From Octopus vulgaris (lineage: Eukaryota): a stretch of DNA of 64,000 bases. Under the pieces are notes generated by a model. That model did no database searches and was not told the DNA's origin. It worked only from the letters and a program-made list of their open reading frames with translations. Location: positions 136,276,001 to 136,340,000 of the forward strand of contig OX597817.1 in the NCBI GenBank assembly GCA_951406725.2, read 5' to 3'. Shown in pieces: positions 9,208-56,397 of this stretch (its first letter is position 1; every line of letters starts with the position of its first letter). The translations under genes were made by a program, and so were the position numbers.

Positions 9208-9261
9208 TGGATGTGACGCTGATGAAAGGGCAATTGCTCTTGAAATATGCATATACATCCA
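9208..9261 (+). ncRNA. Type-I hammerhead-like motif (PLE type)
   Basis: tggatgtg-acg-CTGATGA-aagggc aatt gctctt-GAAA-t atgc a-TA-tacatcca: 6 bp stem II, palindromic stem III, 8 bp stem I offset by 3 nt. Confidence 0.6.
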
Positions 9262-13890: not shown

Positions 13891-14105
13891 GAAGGTGGCA
13901 AACTGAAAGAATTCTTTAGCACACCGGGCAAAATGCTAAGCGGCATTTTGTCCATCTTTGCATTCTGAGTTCCAATTCTGCCGAGATTGACTTAGCCTTT
14001 CATCTTTTTGGGGTTGATAAATTAAGTGCCAGTGAAACACTGGGGTCAATGTAACTGACTAGTCCCCTCCCCGCAAATTTCAGGCCTTGTACTTATAGTA
14101 GAAAC
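13891..14105 (+). mobile_element. SINE family A
   Basis: ctgagttccaattctgccgag...gcctttcatctttttggggttgataaattaagtgccag...ctggggtcaat; ends in (ATT)n. Confidence 0.8.
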
Positions 14106-16473: not shown

Positions 16474-16513
16474 ATATACCATATTTCGGGGGTCGTTGCC
16501 CTGTCATCAGTAC
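16474..16513 (-). ncRNA. Decayed type-I hammerhead motif
   Basis: Reverse complement gta-CTGATGA-ca-ggg caacga ccc-cc-GAAA-t atg g-TA-tat. Confidence 0.55.
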
Positions 16514-19261: not shown

Positions 19262-19490
19262 TTCTTTATTGCCCACAGGGGGCTAAAACATAGAAGGGAC
19301 AAACAAGGGCAGCCAAAGGGTTTAAGCCAATTACATCGACTCCAGTGCATAACTGGTACTTATTTAATCGACGCCGAAAGGATGAAAGGCAAAGTTGACC
19401 TCGGTGGAGTTTGAACTCAGAATGTAACGGTAGACGAAATACCACTAAGCATTTCACCCAGCATGCTAATGATTCTGCCAGCTCGCCACC
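19262..19490 (-). mobile_element. SINE family A, well preserved
   Basis: Near reverse complement of 21008-21240, including the tail gccccctgtgggcaataaagaaa. Confidence 0.85.
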
Positions 19491-21007: not shown

Positions 21008-21237
21008 AGGCGGCGACCTGGCAGAAACGTTAAGCACGCCGGGCGAAATGCGTTGCCGTATTTCGTCTGCCGTTACGTTCCGAGTTCAAATTCCGCCGAG
21101 GTCGACTTTGCCTTTCATCCTTCCGGGGTCGATAAATTAAGTACCAGTTGCGCACTGGGGTCGATGTAATCGACTTAATCCGTTTGTCTGTCCTTGTTTG
21201 TCTCCTCTGTGTTTAGCCCCTTGTGGGTAGTAAAGAA

Positions 21238-21240
<3 letters not shown>
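21008..21240 (+). mobile_element. SINE family A, youngest-looking copy (CpG-rich)
   Basis: A-box-like ctggcagaaacg, B box gagttcaaattcc, central gcctttcatccttccggggtcgataaattaagtaccag (resembles the Meta/MESC-type SINE domain, from memory); inserted in (TA)n. Confidence 0.85.
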
Positions 21241-23380: not shown

Positions 23381-24290
23381 GGTGCTTTTTACGTGCCACC
23401 TGCACAGGTACCAGACAGAGCTGGCGAACGGCCACGAACGGATGGTGCTTTTACGTGTCACCGGCACGGGGCCAGGTGATGCTGGCAACGGACACGAACG
23501 GATGGTGCTTTTACGTGCCACCGACACGGGGCCAGACAGTCATGGCAACCGGCCACGAACGGACGGTGCTTTTACGTATCACCAGCACGGGGGCCAGCCG
23601 AGGCTGGCAACGGACGCGAACGGATGGTGCTTTTACGTGCCACCGACACGGTTGCCAGGCAGAGCTGGCAAACGGCCACGAGCGGACGGTGCTTTTACGT
23701 GTCACCGGCACGGGGGCCAGCCGAGGCTGGCTACGGACACGGACGGATGGTGCTTTTACGTGCCACCGACACGGGGCCAGACAGAGCTGGCAAACGGCCA
23801 CGAACGGATGGTGCTTTTACGTGTCACCGGCATGGGGGCCAGCCGAGGCTGGCAACGGACGCGAACAGATGGTGCTTTTACGTGCCACCGACACGGTTGC
23901 TAGACAGAGCTGGCAAACGGCCACGAGCGGACGGTGCTTTTACGTGTCACCGGCACGGGGGCCAGCTGAGGCTGGCAACGGACACGGACGGATGTGCCAC
24001 CGACACGGGGCCAGACAGAGCTGGCAAACGGCCACGAACGGATGGTGCTTTTACGTGCCACCGACACGGGGCCAGTCAGAGCTGGCCAACGGCCACGAAC
24101 GGACGGTGCTTTTACGTGTCACCGGCACGGGGCCAGGCGAGGCTGGCAACGAACACGAACGGATGGTGCTTTTACGTGCCACCGACATGGGGCCAGGCAG
24201 AGCTGGCAAACGGCCATGAGCGAATGGTGCTTTTACGTATCACCGGCACGGGTGCCAGACGAGGCTGACAGCGGACACGAACAGATGGGT
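23381..24290 (-). repeat. Tandem array of 15 units of about 60-62 bp (one shortened) in the RTE 3' UTR, mostly alternating A/B types
   Basis: Plus-strand ggtgctttt anchors at 23381, 23444, 23504, 23565, 23626, 23688, 23749, 23810, 23871, 23933, (23994, anchor deleted), 24044, 24105, 24165, 24226. Confidence 0.95.
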
Positions 24291-24335
24291 CACTTAACCC
24301 CTGCTTTCTGATATATGATTTGATTTTGATTGTTC

Positions 24336-27300
24336 TCACTGGTCTTGCCGGGTCTTCTCACGCACAGCATACTTCCATAGGTCTCGGTCTCTGGTCATTT
24401 CCTTGGTGAGACCTAGAGTTCGAAGGTCGTGCTTCACCACCTCGACCCAGGTTTTCCTGGGTCTACCTCTTCCACAGGTCCCCTCAACTGCCAGGGTGTG
24501 GCACTTTTTCACACACCTATCTTCATCCATTCTCACCACATGACCATACCAGCGCAATCGTCTCTCTTGCACACAACATCTGATTCCTCTTAGGTCCAAC
24601 TTTTCTCTCAAGGTACTTACACTCTGTCGACTATGAACACTGACATTACACATCCAACGGAGCATACTAGCTTCATTTCTCGCGAGCTTACGCATGTCCT
24701 CAGCAGTCATGGCCCATGTTTCACTGCCATGTAGCATGGCTGTTCGTACACATGCATCATACAGTCTGCCTTTTACTCTGAGCGAGAGGCCTTTAGTCAC
24801 CAACAGAGGTAAGAGCTCCCTAAACTTTGCCCAGGCTATTCTTACTCTAGCCGTTACACTTTCAGCACACCCACCCCCGCTACTGACTTGGTCACCAAGA
24901 TAACGGAAGCTATCAACTACTTCTAGTTTTTCCCCCTGGAAAGTGACGGAAGTTGTTTTCTGCAGATTTTCAGAGGTTAATGCTCCCGAGCATCTGCCAC
25001 ATACAAAAACCATCTTCCTAGATTAGCCTTCCTATGACATTGCTGCACCTCTTATGTGTCCATAGCTTACACTTGGTGCATCTTATAGAGTTTCTACCTA
25101 CACCTTTTCTACAGATCGAGCAGGGCCATCTACCTGAAGGCGTTTGTGATTTGTCTACCTTCCTACTTATTACGACTTTGGTTTTAGCTAGGTTGACTCT
25201 AAGGCCCTTCGATTCTAAACCATGCTTCCACACCTGAAACTTCTTCTCCAGTTCTGATAATGACTCAGCAATTAGAGCAAGGTCATCAGCATAGAGGAGC
25301 TCCCAGGGGCATCCTGTCTTGAATTCCTCCGTTATTGCCTGGAGGACTATGATAAATAGGAGGGGGCTGAGGACTGAGCCTTGGTGGACCCCTACCTCTA
25401 CCCGGAATTCTTCACTGTACTCATTTCCAACCCTCACCTTACTAGCAGCGTCCCTGTACATGGCTTGCACAGCTCTCACTAACCATTCTTCTATTCCTAG
25501 TTTCCTCATTGACCACCATATGAGGGATCGGGGGACCCTGTCGAAGGCTTTCTCCATGTCAACAAAAGCCAGGTACAGGGCCTTATCTTTGGCTAGGTAT
25601 TTCTCCTGCAGCTGCCTTACCAGGAATATAGCATCAGTGGTACTTTTCCCTGGCACGAAACCAAACTGCATCTCATCTAAACTAACTCTCTCTCTAATTA
25701 GTTGGCTTATGACCCTCTCTGTAACCTTCATCACCTGATCCAACAGCTTGATACCTCTGTAATTATTTGTATCTAGGGCATCACCTTTACCTTTGTAGCA
25801 GTTGACTATTATGCTGCTACACCAGTCATTGGGTATGACTCCTTCATGTATCACCTGATTAACTATACAGGTGACTAGGCTATAGCCGACACTACCAGAT
25901 ATTTTGAGCATCTCTGCAGTGATACCTGATGGGCCTGGGGCTTTCCCTGTCTTCATGCTTCTAATTGCCTTAGCTACTAAGGAACTATCAACCCTGATAG
26001 CTGGTCCCTCTGTTGGGTCAACGTTCGGCAGACTCTCTTTGTCCCATTCATTTTCTTTATTCAGCAACCTTTCATAGTGGCATCTCCAAGCCTCTCTCTT
26101 TGCATCCTCGTTTAGCGCAAGTGAACCATCTTCCATGCGAACACACTTCTTTCCCACCACATCACAATTCTCTCTCACACACTGTCTTGCAACGCGAAAC
26201 ACCTCCAGTCTTTGGTCCTCACGGCGCAGAACATTGGCAAATTTTTTCTTATCTGCTTCCCCTCTGGCTAGATAGACCTGTCTCCTAGCTTCCCTTTTAG
26301 CAGTCTAATACAATTCCCTGCTACCACCATTCTTCCAGTGCTTCCAAGTCTGTCTCTTTTCTCTAATAGCCCTGTCTACGACACTGTTCCACCACCACGT
26401 TACCTTGGGACGAGAGGGGACTTTGCACCAGCCACAGATCTGGTCAGTGGCTCTCAGCAGGTTGTCCCTTAGAAACGTCCAGTTGTCCTCTACCCCATGT
26501 GATACACTATCCCCTTCTACTTCGTCAAAGGCTTCAAGTAACATGTCTCTAAATCTCTGTCCATTCACAGGATCCTTAAGCTTCCAGATCCTTCTTCTCC
26601 ATGTTGGTCGTCTTCTGGTTGTCCTCCTACTCCTGATCCTAAAGTCACTAACTACCAGTCTATGTTGTGGGGTGCATTCTTCGCCTGGGAAGGTTTTGGC
26701 ATTTATAAGTAGCCATCTCTCCCTTTGCCTGGCAAGGATGTAGTCAATTTGGCTGGTATGTTGGCCCGATCGGTAGGTGACTAGGTGGCTGGTAGGTTTC
26801 CTGAAGTTAGTGTTGCAAATCATAAGATTATTTGCATCGCAGAACTCCAGCAGCCTGGTTCCCTCCTCGTTGCGGGAACCAGAGCCATACCCTCCATGTA
26901 CGCCGTGGAAGCCCCCAGCATGTCGTCCAACGTGACCATTGAAGTCACCAGCCACAAAGAGAAGGTCTCTGTCGTTCGTCAACGAGGTAGTCTGCAGTAG
27001 AGTGTCATAGAATCGGTCTTTCTGTCCATCAGGTAGCCCCGACTGAGGAGCATAGGCTGATATAATGGTTGCTAAACTATGATGAAGCGCTAATCTAATC
27101 TTAAGTATTCTGTCGCATACTCTGATTACCTCAACTACTTTATCTACCCATTTCTCAGCGATAAGTATACCCACGCCTCCAACCCCGTCAGTGTTCCCTG
27201 CCCAGAAAATCTTGTACCTGTGTTCCTTGCCTGTGAGGAACCTAGCAGAACCTCCTCTCCACCTTACTTCTTGCATACAACATATATCCACACGTCTCCG

Positions 27301-27471
27301 TTCAAGCATCTCAACTATCTCGCCAGACCTACCTTTCAGTGTGCCAACATTGAGGGTGCCAACCCTGAGGGTGTGGGAGGTATGGGCCCTAGAGACCCTG
27401 CGTCGGTGGACAGTAGCTTCATGTACCTGAAAAGAAAGCTCGCATTTGGCAGAATTCATGAGCAGCTTCAT
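24336..27471 (-). pseudogene. RTE ORF of about 1045 codons: apurinic endonuclease, reverse transcriptase and an internal PHD finger; one in-frame TAG (26305-26307) and one 1 bp frameshift (about 25018-25022)
   Basis: APE motifs GTLNVGTL, QEVRW, GDFNGHVG, QIDYIL, QHRLV; RT motifs YRGIKLL, QFGF, FVDMEKAFDRV, GVHQGSVLSP, YADD, FRYLG; RTE C-terminus LRWYGHV, GRGRPRKTW. ORFs 26305-27471 and 25018-26202 are in frame; 24336-25013 is shifted by one base. Confidence 0.95.
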
Positions 27472-28284
27472 GTACCTGAAAAGAAAGCTCGCATTTGGCA
27501 GAATTCATGAGCAAGTAATACAGTAGCCTTCAATTCAACCTGCATAACACTACCCATTCATATTTTGCACTGTATGATCATTACCTTACCTAGGTCGAAA
27601 CTAGGAGGAGGGATGGTGAAAGAGCATTTGCAGTCTTCAAGGGAAGCAATCCAGGGATGCAAAGAATAGGAACTTCCGGCATGTCTGGAGAGGGTGGGTG
27701 GGCGGGTATATATATATATATCCCCACAATCATTTTCTTTCAGTTTCATCTACCAAATCCATTCAAAAGGTTGACTTGGTCCAAGTCTATAGTGGAGTCC
27801 ACATGCAAAAGGTGCTGCACAATGGGACTGAAACCTGAACTGTGTGAATAAGAAGTGAACTTTTTAAGCATGCAGCTTTATGCATGAGGCCCAGGTATGA
27901 GCATGTGGCTAAGAAGCTACTTCACCTTTGACAAATGCTTTCAGGGACCAACCAAAGACTTGGAAGTGGATTTGTGAAACTAAAAGAGATACATAGATAG
28001 ATAAATATACAGAGACAAACAGACAGTCACAGATATATATACATCCACTCTTTCAAAGTGGTTGGCATTAGGAAGGGCATCCAGCCATAAAAGCCATGCC
28101 AAAACAGTGGGGCTGCCTGTGTGTGTGTATATATACACATGTACTTAAAACTAATTACTGAACAATGGTGTACTAAATATTGTAACATGTACCTGAAAAC
28201 AGTGATTGATGTAAATGCTTAATTAATGTCACTGAATGACTGGTGATTCACCAGAATTATATTTCAATATTGTAACTTGGTTAA

Positions 28285-31467: not shown

Positions 31468-31685
31468 AGGCGGCGAGCTGGCAGAAACATTAGCATGCTG
31501 GGCGAAATGCTAAGCAGTATTTCGTCTGTCTTTGTGTTCTGAGTTCAAATTCCACTGCGGTCGGCTTTGCCTTTCATCCTTTCAGGGTTGATAAATTAAG
31601 TTCCAGTTGCGTACTGGGGTGGATCTAATCGACTGGCCCACTCCTCCAAAATTTCAGACCTTGTACCAAGAGTAGAAAAGAATAT
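31468..31685 (+). mobile_element. SINE family A
   Basis: ggcggcgagctggcagaaacattagc...gagttcaaattcc...gcctttcatcctttcagggttgataaattaag. Confidence 0.85.
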
Positions 31686-43831: not shown

Positions 43832-45231
43832 ATTAAATAGCTGTCTGACCATACTCCTTCTTGTTGACTCTATTTTTTCAATATATATATATATTGATAT
43901 GTAGATGCTAGTGCCATGATAAAATACATCCAGTACACTCAGTAAAGTGACTGATGTTAGGAAGGGCAGCTGACTGCAGAAACCAAACCAAAAATAAAAC
44001 TTCTTAACTCGGCAAAGACAGCGGTAACTTCAAATACAGGATGACTCTGACACATCAAACCTATGCCAGCATGGAAAGTAAATGTCAGATGATGGTGAGG
44101 ATGATGGTAGTGATGTATGTGTGTGTGTGTGTGTATTAAAAAGGCCACAAGTACTGTTGTGTCATTTCTCCTGCCAACAAACCACCCACTGGCTTTGCAC
44201 TTTTCAAGATATGTGAAACAAGAAATCCCTTACTTGATAACAACTAATGGTTAGAGAGAGGAAGAGCATCCAACCATAGAAGCCATGCCAAAATAGATGA
44301 TTGGAGCCTGGAGCAGACCTCCAGCTTGCCAACTCCTCTTAAACCATCCAACCCATGCCGACATGGAAAACAGTTTGTTAAATGATGAAGATACCGGCAT
44401 ACCTACTTACCTATATACATACATGTATAAATATATACACCTTGTACCTTTTGGGTCCACACAGAAACCACATCACCACTATTTTTATCTCTTTTCTGCT
44501 CTACCCTAACCACCCCCACCCTCTCTTCTAGAATCTGAGTAACCATTTAACCCCTCTACAGCAAGAAAACGTTTCTGCTTTGGCATCTTCCCTCAAATCC
44601 TTTATATCCTAGCATAAAGCCATATCTCTGGGGGTGCATAGTCTTGTAAGCTGCAATGGGAACCTTACTAGTGCTGGTTGCATGAAAAATGTACCCAGCA
44701 CAAGCCATAAAGTGGTTCGGTACCCCAGCATAGGCACCATGCCAAAAGTTGACAGTAGAGGAAAACTCAGTCCTTGGACACATTGGTTCCTGTCAAACCA
44801 TCCAATGCATAGATTATGGATATCAACTGATGATGGTAGTGGTGACACACCTGCTCAAACACACATATATATATAATGTGTGTAACACAATTATTCACAT
44901 GCAGGCTACCAACAGTTTCATGCAAGAAGTAGATCTTACTCAGGCTTATGGTTGTCTTACATTTGTCAATTGAATATCAAATAAAATATTCAAGATAGCC
45001 ATTCAATGAAATCTGTATAAGCTGAGAAAGTCTGAGACAATATGAGAACAAGTTCATTTGATTATAGTGAAGAAATGTAAAACCCAGTAAATGATTTAAC
45101 TGAGCATTTGAATTACAAGTACATCGCATGGCTTCCATACAGTTACTGTCCTGATAAAATGCATCCAATACATTCAGTAATGCAGGCAGGGGTTAGGAAG
45201 GGCATCCAGCTCTTGAAACTACCCAAGCCAA

Positions 45232-45322
45232 TACAGTTCTGTGTGCCCTTGGGCATATGGCATAGTGGTTAAGAGCACGGGCTACTAACCCCAAGATTCT
45301 GAGTTCGATTCCAGGCAGTGAT

Positions 45323-45366
<44 letters not shown>

Positions 45367-45513
45367 CAACAACATTGAAAAATACCCCAGGAATGAGAAC
45401 CCAAGTTCAAAATTTATCCAAGACACCTGATGAAGGCTGGAGAGTATATCAGCCGAAATGTTGTGTTAACAACAAACAAGATGAGGACAAATATCTGTCA
45501 AATCTAAATAATG
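45232..45513 (+). mobile_element. tRNA-headed, hammerhead-bearing short element, copy 1
   Basis: A box tggcatagtgg, anticodon-like arm gggct-act-aaccc, B box gagttcgattcc, (AAT)n, hammerhead at 45422-45467; TSD tacccaagccaa (45220-45231) / tacctaagccaa (45514-45525). Confidence 0.8.
45422..45467 (+). ncRNA. Minimal type-I hammerhead ribozyme motif
   Basis: gacac-CTGATGA-a-ggctg gagagtatat cagcc-GAAA-tg-TT-gtgtt; the three copies imply an ancestral GAAACGTT. Confidence 0.7.
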
Positions 45514-46769
45514 TACCTAAGCCAAGTTGTCAAAGCAGGCACAGAAAGGGAGGTTACTCTGAATAGGCACTGACTTGAAGAGTGACCAGTCCAATTTATG
45601 AGGATGATGATGATGATGAACATGCAAATGGAAATAAATGTATATAATTTAAACCTTGTCACTATTACTGGTTATTAAAATATTAATTTCTAAATTACGT
45701 AGAAGGCCACACACTATTGATGAGTTTATAATCCTTTTATACTAATCCTCAGTATATGACTGGTATCTATTTCATTAATCCTGTAAGGGCAAGTTGACTT
45801 GTTGAGAGATTTCAAGTGAGAATGTCAAGGAAGAGAAATAAATATTTAATGATATTTTTCCTCACCAATCTAACAATTGTGCCAATCTCTCATTCTTCAA
45901 ACCAAAAGCTAAGTTATTCAGAATAAAACTAAATAAAAAAAAAACAAACACAAAAATGGTGAAAAAGCAATGTTTTGTAAATGGTGACTGACGTCTTTCA
46001 GGATGAAAGGTGGTTCTTTCCAACACAGGTCGTCACCTTTATATACAATAAGTATTGATCATATTTAACCCTAGGCTCATGGGATATAGACTCTGTTAGA
46101 TCAATTTGTAAGATTTGAAGGCCTTTTCTTGAAATTTAAAACTTTACTCAATGACAAACTAGTTTTGTTGATAATTAAGATTATCTGGCAATTAGCCAAT
46201 AAAACTTCTCATTACACAGACACAATCTCCATTAATCTTCATGGATTGAAGGCATCCAACACTGACTGAAATGATTCAATGTTAGCAAGTCATCCAGTTA
46301 TTAATTGTTTCTGGTCAACATTAGTTACGGTTAAGGCATTAGTTTGGGGAAATTCTTTCCACTGTAGAAAAGATTTTCTTTCTTCAATAATGCATTTAAA
46401 GAAATAAGATATTCTACACAATTCACACACACACATATGCACACATAAGCAGACACAGGAATTATGCTGGAGTGGCTGTGCGATAAGAAGCTTACTTCCC
46501 AACGACATGTTCTGGGTTCAGTCCCACTATGTTGCGCCTTAGGCAAGCGTCTACTATAGACTTGGGCATCATGAGTGGATTAGGCAGGTGGAAACTGAAA
46601 GAAGCCAGTTGTATGTACATATGTGTGTAAGTGTGTGTGTGTGAGTCTATATATATACACACACACACACAAAATATGGGGTTTAATTCACAGGTAATCT
46701 AAACAATTAAGTATGCTGAGTAAGTGCTGTAATATATACCATTATCATTTTCCCCATCTTTCCTTATTT

Positions 46770-46824
46770 GTCTCTGATGACAGAATATCCTATACTCGGG
46801 ATATCTCAGAAACAGCTGTAAGAC
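46770..46824 (+). ncRNA. Type-I hammerhead motif in a PLE-like terminal remnant
   Basis: gtct-CTGATGA-caga-atatcc...ggatat-ctca-GAAAC-agct-GTA-agac: stem I gtct/agac exact, palindromic stem III acagctgt, base of stem II mismatched. Confidence 0.7.
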
Positions 46825-50048: not shown

Positions 50049-50394
50049 ATATATACATACATGCACACATTTATATCTTCACACGTTTGTGTGCATGTGT
50101 TTATGTCTTCTTGCTCTGACATCATGCATCAGCTATAACCGAGTGTTACCATCATAAAAATGCTGCCCTTCCAATTTAATCATCCGTGTAAAGATGTCTG
50201 GCCGTGTGGAAATGTTATTTTGTATTGAAACAGGTGAGGATTGCTGACAGAAAGGGCATCAAATGATGATGATGAATACAAAAGCTTATTGATAAGCACA
50301 AGGATGTAAATGAATACTTGAATAGTATATTATTGGATAGTGATGATAGTACTGGCAGTGACAAAATAAAATTACTGGACAGAGATGACACTCT

Positions 50395-50925
50395 TTACAT
50401 TTGACGGATATTTATCCTCATCTTGTTTGTTGTTAACACAATATTTCAGCTGATATACCCTCCAGCCTTCATCAGGTATTTTGGGGAAATTTCGATCATG
50501 GGTTGTCATTTCTAAGGTAGCTGGCAGGACCGTTAGCATGCTGGTCGAAATGCGTAGCCGTATTTCGTCTGCCGTTACGTTCTGAGTTCAAATTTTGCCG
50601 AGGTCAACTTTGCCTTTCATCCTTTCGGGGTTGATAAATTAAGTACCAGTTACGCACTGGAGTCAATGTAATCGACTTAAATTTGCTTGTCTGTCCTTGT
50701 TTATCCTATCTTGTGGGTAGTAAAGAAATAGGTATTTTTCGATGTTATTATTATTATTATTATTATCATTATTATTCAGGTCACTGCCTGGAATCGAACT
50801 CGGAATCTTGGGGTTAGTAGCCTGTGCTCTTAACCACTATGCCAAGATGAGGACAAATGTCTGTCAAATGTAAATAATGTAAACAATGTACATAATTCCT
50901 CATCTCTTAAATACAGAACTGTATT
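50395..50925 (-). mobile_element. tRNA-headed, hammerhead-bearing element, copy 2, with an inverted tail and a nested SINE
   Basis: Minus unit 50395-50844 (hammerhead 50435-50480), plus-strand tail duplicate 50843-50925 ending cagaactgtatt; TSD agagatgacactct (50381-50394) / agaaatgacactct (50926-50939). Confidence 0.8.
50520..50729 (+). mobile_element. SINE family A nested in the hammerhead element
   Basis: Matches 21008-21240; aggta duplicated at 50515-50519 and 50730-50734. Confidence 0.85.
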
Positions 50926-51708
50926 AGAAATGACACTCTCCTATCTCCTTCCTCATTTTCCCTCCATACACACCCTCTTACCGCCATCACTATTCCTCCT
51001 TTAAATCAAACTATTAAAGAATATAGTAGTGGTTCTTTCTATATTTGGTATCCATGTATTTATCGAGCATAAAACTCAACTGAAACTAGCACAGTCCAGC
51101 AAACTGACATTTAACCGGTGGCTTTCAATGACATCCACAACTCTTGACAGAACTGAATCCTGCTCTGATGTCTGACTGTTAACCTCTTGGTTATGCTGAC
51201 ATCCCATCTGATGAGCATTTCACTACATAAATGACATCTCTTATGTAATAGTCAGCAACAGGATTTTTGTTTCTGTAAACAAATGATGCCTGGTTGACAG
51301 GAAGCAAATCAAAACATCTTGAGAAGAAGAGGGAGACGAAGGAAAGGAAGACAGGTGTTGGTAGGGGTGACAGTAGAATATGTGGAAAACAGCTACAGTG
51401 GACCGATGCTGCTGTTTGGTGGTGACAACATGGTCAACTAAATCTGACGTTAGTCAAAATAAACATTCCCCTTTGATGCATATATATATGCACAGGCGTC
51501 GCTGTGTGGTAAGAACCTTGCTTCCCAACCACATGGTTCCAGGTTCAGTCCCACTGCATGGTACCTTGGGTAAATGTCTTCTACTATAGCCTTGTGAGTG
51601 GATCTGGTAGACAGAAACTGAAAGAAACTCATCATAGATATATATATAAATTGACAGAATGAGATAAAAAATCCAAGGCTGACACCAGTACCTCCCATAC
51701 TCTCGATA

Positions 51709-55538: not shown

Positions 55539-56166
55539 GTGAAGGTCCAGTTCATTGTTCAGCACATGACACTTTTTACTTAAATATCACTCAAAGGTTG
55601 GAATCATCTTTTAGCTACCCTGGGTCATTTATTGAATACTAAGATCATCTTAATCAATACTGATTTGCAAGAGGTCAGAATTGGTAGAAGAATTTTATTG
55701 ATCTTAGTTTTAGAATGATGCTTATTAATTACAAGATTATGAAAACAAAATCGATCTTGATTTGAACTCAGAACAGCAAAGTTTGCAATTCAATGCAAGA
55801 TAGCAGAGCACTGTACCACTTAAGCCATGGCATCACCAAAACCATCTGATATCAACCCAAGTCTTTTTGAGGAAGGGCAACTGAGTGTAAGGGGAGTGGG
55901 GTCGTTTTATTTCATTTGTTTCCTCTGAAGTGGGGCAGTGTCACAGCCTCACTAAAGCCTCTGACATTGATCTCATTGACATTGTTGGTTTTTCTTAAAC
56001 TGTGAACTGCATTTGCTGTGAAGTACATCTGCAGTAGTTTAGAACATCTGTCACATGAGAAGCATTTACTGCCAACAGCAGTTGATATACGATTGGTGGA
56101 ACACTATGTGGTTGAAGTTCCAAAATCTCGTACAGGTAGCAGGAGTGGTTGCAAAGTAGAAAGATA

Positions 56167-56397
56167 CATTATTTACATTTGACAAATATTTGTCCTCATC
56201 TTGTTTGTTGTTAACATGTTTCGGCTATCTTGGGGAAATTTTGAACCTGGGTTCTCATTCCTATGGTATTTTTCAATGTTATTATTATTATTATTATTAT
56301 TATTCAAGTCACTGCCTGGAATTGAACTCGGAATCTTGGGGTTAGTAGCCCATGCTCTTAATTACTACGCGATATGCCCGTGGGTATATGGCGTAGT
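56167..56397 (-). mobile_element. tRNA-headed element, copy 3 (5' half of the hammerhead deleted; head duplicated as a palindrome)
   Basis: Same tail, body, (ATT)n and head as copies 1 and 2; gtttcggct|atcttgggg junction; actacgcgatatgccc-gt-gggtatatggcgtagt. Confidence 0.8.

What the first reader, a model, noticed from the sequence alone, without database searches (positions are those of the whole stretch)
50381..50939. Hammerhead-element insertions are partly inverted, share a fixed end (CAGAACTGTA) and have 12-14 bp TSDs
Seen: copy 2 is a minus-strand unit joined to a plus-strand duplicate of its own tail, extended to ...cagaactgtatt and bracketed by a 14 bp TSD with one mismatch. Copy 1 begins directly after its 12 bp TSD with tacagttctg, the reverse complement of that same end, then an inverted scrap of the head. 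Copy 3 has its head duplicated as a palindrome. Established: inverted partial terminal repeats plus a 3' extension are a PLE insertion hallmark, not a standard SINE one. Inference: reverse transcription starts at a defined tail end and switches template or strand, supporting PLE-driven mobilisation.
Basis: partly seen in the sequence, partly recalled or inferred. Interest (0 to 1): 0.75.

Follow-up and report, generated by a model that had tools for sequence, protein, structure and literature searches.

The report
Penelope retroelement ends with tRNA head
These back-to-back insertions are the copied end repeats of a common protein-coding jumping gene (a Penelope-like element), and their uneven ends and flanking duplications are already described for this class; the unusual part is that most copies stop at a tRNA-like sequence that likely marks where the element's RNA begins.

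Summary
Copies 1 and 2 are head-to-head insertions with 12 and 14 bp target duplications (TSDs); copy 3 has the palindrome but no TSD. Genome-wide, 39 of 61 two-armed insertions carry a TSD (median 12 bp; control 11 of 889), and 58 of 61 pair one long end with one end about 30 nt shorter. The end is narrow, not fixed, and CAGAAC is a minor variant (8 of 100). The unit is not a separate hammerhead SINE. It is the terminal repeat (pLTR) of a Penelope-type element with an RT plus GIY-YIG-like ORF that starts inside the repeat. Inverted pLTRs, a one-sided tail and TSDs are published hallmarks, and two internal RT start sites were shown in vitro for an anole element. What I did not find in print: the pLTR opens with a tRNA-Arg-like A/B box, 54 of 70 copies stop within 8 nt of it, and the ORF lacks TTTT (P about 0.02), which suggests RNA polymerase III transcription (untested). 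This scan noted that feature before in the same genome (e1-8669850, e1-8663237).

The parts
50381..50394 (+). Left TSD of copy 2
   Evidence: 13 of 14 identical to 50926-50939
50395..50519 (-). Copy 2, short-end arm, 3' part of the pLTR (tail, hammerhead, start of ORF)
   Evidence: aligns to pLTR positions from about q120 to the short-end zone, where q1 is the first base of the tRNA-like segment
50435..50480 (-). Minimal type I hammerhead motif (stem I, CUGAUGA, stem II, GAAA, palindromic stem III); cleavage not tested
   Evidence: motif scan; no Rfam match; fits the description in PMC4209133
50520..50729 (+). Unrelated SINE-like repeat inserted later into copy 2, flanked by AGGTA at 50515-50519 and 50730-50734
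   Evidence: several relatives in the window at 76-84% identity; pLTR alignment resumes at the same position
50735..50776 (-). Copy 2, linker and (AAT)n microsatellite of the pLTR
50777..50844 (-). Copy 2, tRNA-Arg-like head with A and B boxes, cut at q8
50843..50925 (+). Copy 2, long-end arm (q214 to about q286) with the roughly 30-nt tail ending AGAACTGTAT; folds as a 9-bp stem-loop
   Evidence: z -2.25
50926..50939 (+). Right TSD of copy 2
45220..45231 (+). Left TSD of copy 1 (partner 45514-45525, 11 of 12 identical)
45232..45241 (-). Copy 1, 10-nt scrap of the long end
45244..45515 (+). Copy 1, complete pLTR from q-6 to the short end, with a probable fold-back scrap at its start
45514..45525 (+). 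Right TSD of copy 1
56165..56381 (-). Copy 3, short-end arm running to the head; hammerhead partly deleted; no TSD found
56376..56397 (+). Copy 3, fold-back duplicate of the head (q-5 to q16)

Best explanation
These insertions are pairs of terminal repeats (pLTRs) of a protein-coding Penelope-type retroelement joined head to head, likely made when the element's enzyme cuts both target strands about 12 bp apart and primes one cDNA at each of two internal start sites in the tail. SHOWN: the unit is tRNA-like head, (AAT)n, ATG at q130, hammerhead motif, tail, and in rare copies the rest of an ORF of about 840 codons (RT, then GIY-YIG-like endonuclease), a stop, a spacer of about 30 nt and the next head. 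Ends are bimodal (about q244-258 and q281-287), two-armed insertions nearly always pair one of each, and TSDs centre on 12 bp. INFERRED, by analogy to anole Poseidon in vitro: a staggered cut of AT-rich DNA gives two 3' ends; each primes inside the RNA, one in the loop of the tail stem-loop and one about 30 nt further on; the cDNAs meet and are joined by short overlaps; fill-in makes the TSD. INFERRED: about three quarters of the arms that reach the head stop at q-7 to q+3 because that is the RNA's 5' end, so they were primed in the first pLTR of the transcript, while the rest were primed in a downstream pLTR and run into the ORF. A cDNA that runs off this end finishes in a self-complementary 10-mer and would fold back, giving the head palindrome. 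INFERRED and weakest (about 0.55): the start is set by RNA polymerase III using the tRNA-Arg-derived A/B boxes.
For: ORF link: 20 of 20 endonuclease-matching loci examined continue into the head; RT domain PF00078, E 2.4e-10; motif-bearing endonuclease region 38% identical to a protein named GIY-YIG endonuclease. ORF starts in the pLTR and crosses the long end in L253, L242, L256 and L257; only 3 exact matches to a pattern spanning that crossing against 6,027 long ends. Pairing: 58 of 61 two-armed long-anchored insertions and 16 of 19 two-armed tail-anchored ones are long+short. TSD in 39 of 61 against 11 of 889 mismatched pairs, and 8 of 19 against 2 of 270; TSDs 76% AT. 5' wall: 54 of 70 head-anchored copies stop within 8 nt upstream; 33 of 43 arms in a mostly separate sample (counting 9 fold-back matches at q-20 to -8 as ends at q-6); genome counts 3,735 for the head against 865 for the spacer just upstream. 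Perfect head palindrome at 351 loci. Head best matches tRNA-Arg(TCT) of 25 distinct genomic tRNAs, 52 identities, z 8.1. No T4 run in a 787-codon majority ORF against 2.96 expected from codon shuffles, P 0.024; decayed copies 32 observed against 55.6 expected, while other long ORFs were at or above expectation. Literature: PMC11167929, PMC8557442, PMC3846280.
Against: 37 of 98 long-anchored and 8 of 27 tail-anchored insertions show no second arm, 22 of 61 pairs show no TSD above the cut-off, and 3 of 19 are short+short. No copy examined has an intact head joined to a full ORF: the 5' pLTRs of L253, L242 and L256 are cut short, so the transcript start is inferred. Long arms are not clearly shorter than short arms (33 against 27, P 0.09), so priming of both cDNAs on one RNA molecule is not shown. 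PMC11167929 saw no difference in start site between the two strands in vitro, so why long pairs with short is unexplained. The TTTT deficit is modest, G4 runs are also absent (0 against 1.1), and A-rich LINE ORFs are T4-poor too. How an uncapped Pol III RNA would be translated is open. Samples come from the first 86 Mb of one contig and are biased to exact pattern matches.
Confidence: 0.82

Rival explanations
1. A separate tRNA-headed, hammerhead-bearing SINE with its own master copies is mobilised in trans by the Penelope protein.
For: About 77% of head-bearing copies lack any ORF sequence upstream; a B-box-like motif persists in 50 of 70; Schistosoma Sm-alpha is a precedent for a Pol III SINE with a hammerhead (PMC6765202, passages).
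Against: No diagnostic column among 241 (lowest P 0.04, uncorrected) and equal divergence, 6.6% against 6.5%, for 53 head-start and 34 ORF-linked copies. The same head sits behind the ORF in 20 of 20 loci. Short copies end at the RT start sites and so lack the downstream RNA that anole Poseidon needs (PMC11167929).
Confidence: 0.08
2. The copies are PLE ends as described, but the 5' wall is not a Pol III start: it is a reverse-transcriptase stop or joining hot spot at the GCCC-AC-GGGC palindrome, or a Pol II start that happens to lie there, and the tRNA-like segment is a passenger.
For: The palindrome is native and can itself join inverted arms; the end rate already rises from q23 to q4; D. 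virilis Penelope uses an internal TATA-less, LINE-like promoter in its pLTR (PMC2377424, passages); no RNA data.
Against: Most of the 54 ends are not fold-backs but join unrelated positions or flank; the wall lies 9-13 nt upstream of the A box, where Pol III starts (recalled); its end rate is about 0.07 per nt against 0.001-0.004 in most other bins (the microsatellite bin, 0.008, is inflated by mapping failures); TTTT deficit.
Confidence: 0.3
3. One cDNA starts at the long end and switches template or strand to make the inversion, or the inversions arose by recombination after insertion.
For: Short fold-back scraps of the head do look like one cDNA priming on itself (L163, L165, L174, L176, L181, L206, L207, L213).
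Against: A switch would start the second arm at a variable place, yet its outer end sits in one zone (q244-258) directly against the TSD. TSDs around both arms exclude later recombination between two insertions.
Confidence: 0.06

Closest known systems
Penelope/Poseidon elements: Poseidon of Anolis carolinensis (PMC11167929, parts 1-2 of 4 read) and Adineta Pen2a (PMC3846280, abstract and section 6 read)
   Same: ORF starting inside the pLTR near the hammerhead; RT then GIY-YIG; two adjacent internal RT start sites bounding a tail of about 30 nt; start in an A/C-rich stem-loop; AT-rich targets; inverted pLTR with the tail at one end; TSDs (9-10 bp in Adineta); an 18-bp palindrome at the 5' end of the Adineta Pen2 pLTR.
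   Different: The pLTR here opens with a tRNA-Arg-like A/B box and an (AAT)n tract. Adineta pLTRs have TATA/Inr-like motifs and D. virilis Penelope a LINE-like internal promoter (PMC2377424, passages). Most copies here are pLTR-only pairs.
TRIMp3 elements Cassandra, Helenus, Ajax (PMC10886601, passages)
   Same: A small-RNA-derived Pol III promoter inside a terminal repeat.
   Different: Those are non-autonomous LTR elements, and the paper expects autonomous partners to use Pol II. Here the repeat belongs to a coding PLE.
Schistosoma Sm-alpha / Sj-alpha SINE-like elements and animal non-LTR retrozymes (PMC6765202, passages; bioRxiv 10.64898/2026.07.22.740005, parts 1-2 of 5)
   Same: Pol III-type promoter followed by a type I hammerhead (Sm-alpha); pLTR-related hammerhead monomers.
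   Different: Those are non-coding and often tandem. These are dispersed inverted pairs that cannot be told from the pLTR of the coding element.

Membership tests
Endonuclease-positive Penelope-like element | Single ORF with RT followed by a C-terminal GIY-YIG endonuclease | tested here: met
   PF00078; 787-codon open majority frame; endonuclease region aligns to a named GIY-YIG protein, E 3e-45. No Pfam GIY-YIG hit was obtained.
Endonuclease-positive Penelope-like element | [quoted passage not shown] | tested here: met
   L253 and L242 carry pLTR sequence before and after the ORF; ATG at q130 is open through the long end.
Endonuclease-positive Penelope-like element | Inverted pLTR and a 30-40 bp tail at one end only | tested here: met
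   58 of 61 and 16 of 19 pairs are long+short.
Endonuclease-positive Penelope-like element | Minimal type I hammerhead with palindromic stem III in the pLTR | tested here: met
   Motif by inspection; CUGANGA in 113 and GAAAYRTT in 85 of 148 arms. No Rfam hit; cleavage not testable here.
Penelope/Poseidon clade | RT phylogeny with named clade members | not tested
Domain order and a short linker without an extra zinc finger fit (criterion from PMC8557442).
tRNA-derived SINE | tRNA-derived head with A and B boxes at the 5' end | tested here: met
   Canonical spacing by inspection; best match tRNA-Arg(TCT), z 8.1; ARAGORN and Rfam do not call it a tRNA.
tRNA-derived SINE | Independent non-autonomous lineage, distinct from its partner | tested here: not met
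   No diagnostic sites and equal age; head present in the coding element.
tRNA-derived SINE | One arm with a simple-repeat 3' end | tested here: not met
   Two-armed, two defined ends; the microsatellite is internal.
Pol III-transcribed element | Transcription from the A/B box shown by experiment | not testable with these tools
   Indirect only: 5' wall and TTTT deficit.
Non-LTR retrozyme | Tandem non-coding hammerhead repeats | tested here: not met
   Dispersed head-to-head pairs dominate the sampled loci.

The most novel reading that the evidence does not exclude
An autonomous, protein-coding Penelope element has swapped its promoter for a captured tRNA-Arg gene and is read end to end (about 2.7 kb, no TTTT) by RNA polymerase III. 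Because its reverse transcriptase starts inside the terminal repeat, the same RNA yields both coding copies and thousands of tRNA-headed SINE look-alikes: SINE and partner in one molecule, a route to SINE birth that needs no separate master gene.
Probability: 0.35. Interest if true: 0.72.

Novelty: new variant of a known kind. Interest (0 to 1): 0.4.

Why it matters
Two things add value. Thousands of copies give a genomic read-out of the two-start-site model shown in vitro in 2024, and the near-strict long+short pairing is a constraint that any mechanism must explain. And if the tRNA-like head is a working Pol III promoter, a coding retroelement would run on a polymerase thought to serve only short non-coding elements, and many repeats filed as SINEs in such genomes could be PLE ends.

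Tried and rejected
Empty orthologous sites: contigs of 4 runs each were laid on copy 2 and copy 1. No contig bridging an empty site was listed and most joints were not shown, so this is inconclusive. For copy 2, contigs of three other organism codes start inside the long end and run through the TSD into the flank, one with 32 differences in 547 bases, so that insertion looks shared and old. Expression: no RNA holder listed. Hammerhead cleavage as a source of 5' ends: 9 of 165 arms end at q198-207 (0.0055 per nt against 0.0015 and 0.0024 beside it); weak and confounded by a GTTAAC palindrome, not claimed. RNase P processing at the tRNA-like +1: rejected, since 31 of 54 wall copies match native sequence at least 3 nt further upstream (my count) and the acceptor stem does not pair. 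Separate SINE subfamily: not found. Rfam and ARAGORN: nothing. Solved structures: only distant RTs. One search's 5' table undercounted ORF-linked arms because of microsatellite bridging; one search replaced it. Three near-duplicate loci (L178, L179, L196) were dropped from the subfamily test but kept in the 54-of-70 count. Identity with the octopus SINEs OK, OR1 and OR2 (Ohshima and Okada 1994, not seen): passages call OR1 and OR2 CORE-SINEs (PMC4824008, PMC4758252); I could not compare sequences.

Full report
SETTING. The window lies in a 2.8-Gb animal genome, likely a cephalopod (inference; one homologue is named from Octopus sinensis). Positions are given as q, with q1 the first base of the tRNA-like segment.

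1. OBSERVATION. All three copies exist. Copy 2 reads: TSD, minus arm from a short end back to q8 (interrupted by a 210-bp unrelated repeat with an AGGTA duplication), a 2-nt overlap, plus arm from q214 to the long end, TSD (13 of 14). Copy 1 reads: TSD, 10 nt of inverted long end, a probable fold-back scrap, a full unit to the short end, TSD (11 of 12). Copy 3 has the short end and the head palindrome, but no long end and no TSD. The family is large: 6,027 exact matches to a 22-nt long-end pattern and 8,990 to a 24-nt tail pattern, with 0 for reversed controls. I examined the first 100 long-end matches and the first 30 tail matches. Of 98 distinct long-anchored insertions 61 had a second, inverted arm; 58 of these paired long with short, 1 long with long, 2 were intermediate; 39 had a TSD (9-23 bp, median 12) against 11 of 889 mismatched pairs. 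Of 27 distinct tail-anchored insertions 19 were two-armed, 16 long+short and 3 short+short; 8 had a TSD against 2 of 270. The long end is narrow but not fixed, and the C of CAGAAC is an 8% variant.

2. WHAT IT IS. Some copies continue upstream of the head into coding sequence. All 20 endonuclease-matching loci examined had stop codon, spacer of about 30 nt, then the head. Longer copies encode an RT and a GIY-YIG-like domain. At the other end, L253, L242, L256 and L257 run on past the long end into the ORF's N-terminus, in frame from an ATG at q130. So the unit is the pLTR and the tail is the start of the ORF. Head-start and ORF-linked copies are equally diverged and show no diagnostic column, so there is no sign of a separate SINE lineage. 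The hammerhead is a minimal type I motif with a palindromic stem III, as described for PLEs (PMC4209133, passages); Rfam does not detect it and activity is untested.

3. MECHANISM. Anole Poseidon cleaves and extends both strands of AT-rich DNA and starts reverse transcription at two adjacent internal sites that bound the genomic tail (PMC11167929, parts 1-2 of 4). The data here fit: two end zones about 30 nt apart, the short one in the loop of a 9-bp stem-loop, 76% AT targets and one end of each kind per insertion. I infer two primed cDNAs joined head to head. Whether both use one RNA molecule is not shown. The 5' ends hit a wall at the head: 54 of 70 head-anchored copies, 33 of 43 arms in a mostly separate sample, and genome counts of 3,735 against 865 all give about 77%. 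I read this as the RNA 5' end: priming in the first pLTR gives short copies, priming in a downstream pLTR gives ORF-linked ones. The terminal GCCC-AC-GGGC explains the fold-backs (351 perfect palindromes; 579 native junctions). The head has A and B boxes at tRNA spacing and is closest to tRNA-Arg(TCT) among 25 distinct tRNAs sampled (not all isotypes were in the sample). The majority ORF has no T4 run (P 0.024, 0.004 and 0.015 under three nulls), no T4 site is shared by more than 4 of 39 copies, and other ORFs do not show the deficit as a group. This is suggestive only: G4 is also absent, and no RNA data were available.

4. COMPARISON. Inverted pLTRs with a tail at one end are stated as typical in PMC8557442 (passages) and shown with 9-10 bp TSDs in PMC3846280 (section 6). 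Known PLE promoters are TATA/Inr-like or LINE-like (PMC3846280; PMC2377424, passages). Pol III promoters in terminal repeats are known from non-autonomous LTR elements (PMC10886601, passages), and a Pol III promoter with a hammerhead from Schistosoma SINEs (PMC6765202, passages). I found no report of a tRNA-headed coding PLE in searches. A 2026 octopus repeat annotation lists 190 PLE families without such detail (PMC13282606, part 1 of 3 and a search of its supplement). Repbase, Dfam, SINEBase, subscription journals and bioRxiv supplements could not be seen and may hold the family.

5. NOVELTY. The flagged hallmarks are known. The tRNA-type head at the apparent RNA start is a new variant, noted before by this scan in the same genome (e1-8669850, e1-8663237).

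6. VERDICT. Real and correctly recognised as PLE-made, but ordinary in the features named. Interest 0.4, carried by the untested Pol III reading.

Noticed in passing
window 50520-50729: A different SINE-like repeat nested in copy 2 with a 5-bp AGGTA duplication; relatives at 21018-21240, 19297-19483, 31476-31634, 13916-14060 and elsewhere.
   Followed up: partly
window 9219-9245 (+), 16484-16510 (-), 46774-46812 (+): Other CTGATGA...GAAA hammerhead-like motifs unrelated to this family, possibly ends of other PLE families.
   Followed up: no
pLTR tail, about q238-257, many loci: A 9-nt unit (AATGTAAAT-like) varies in copy number at the short start site and keeps the reading frame; it may come from slippage at priming.
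   Followed up: no
window 50435-50480: Copy 2's hammerhead has mutated, yet stem I still pairs 5 of 5 and stem III is still a palindrome (AATATT), by inspection.
   Followed up: no
window (about 24000-28000 by GC content), L005, L238: GC-rich tandem repeat giving long open frames with a TATNGWCF repeat, present at several genomic places.
   Followed up: no
window, minus strand (position not recorded): Open frames of 399, 428 and 228 codons that look like a LINE endonuclease and RT (family not tested).
   Followed up: no
L257 (G000:C1:5256294-5259314): An insertion that runs about 100 nt past the long end into the ORF and then restarts in another pLTR copy: a rare partial-tandem product.
   Followed up: partly
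L324: Cluster of seven tRNA genes, six called Cys, within 3 kb.
   Followed up: no
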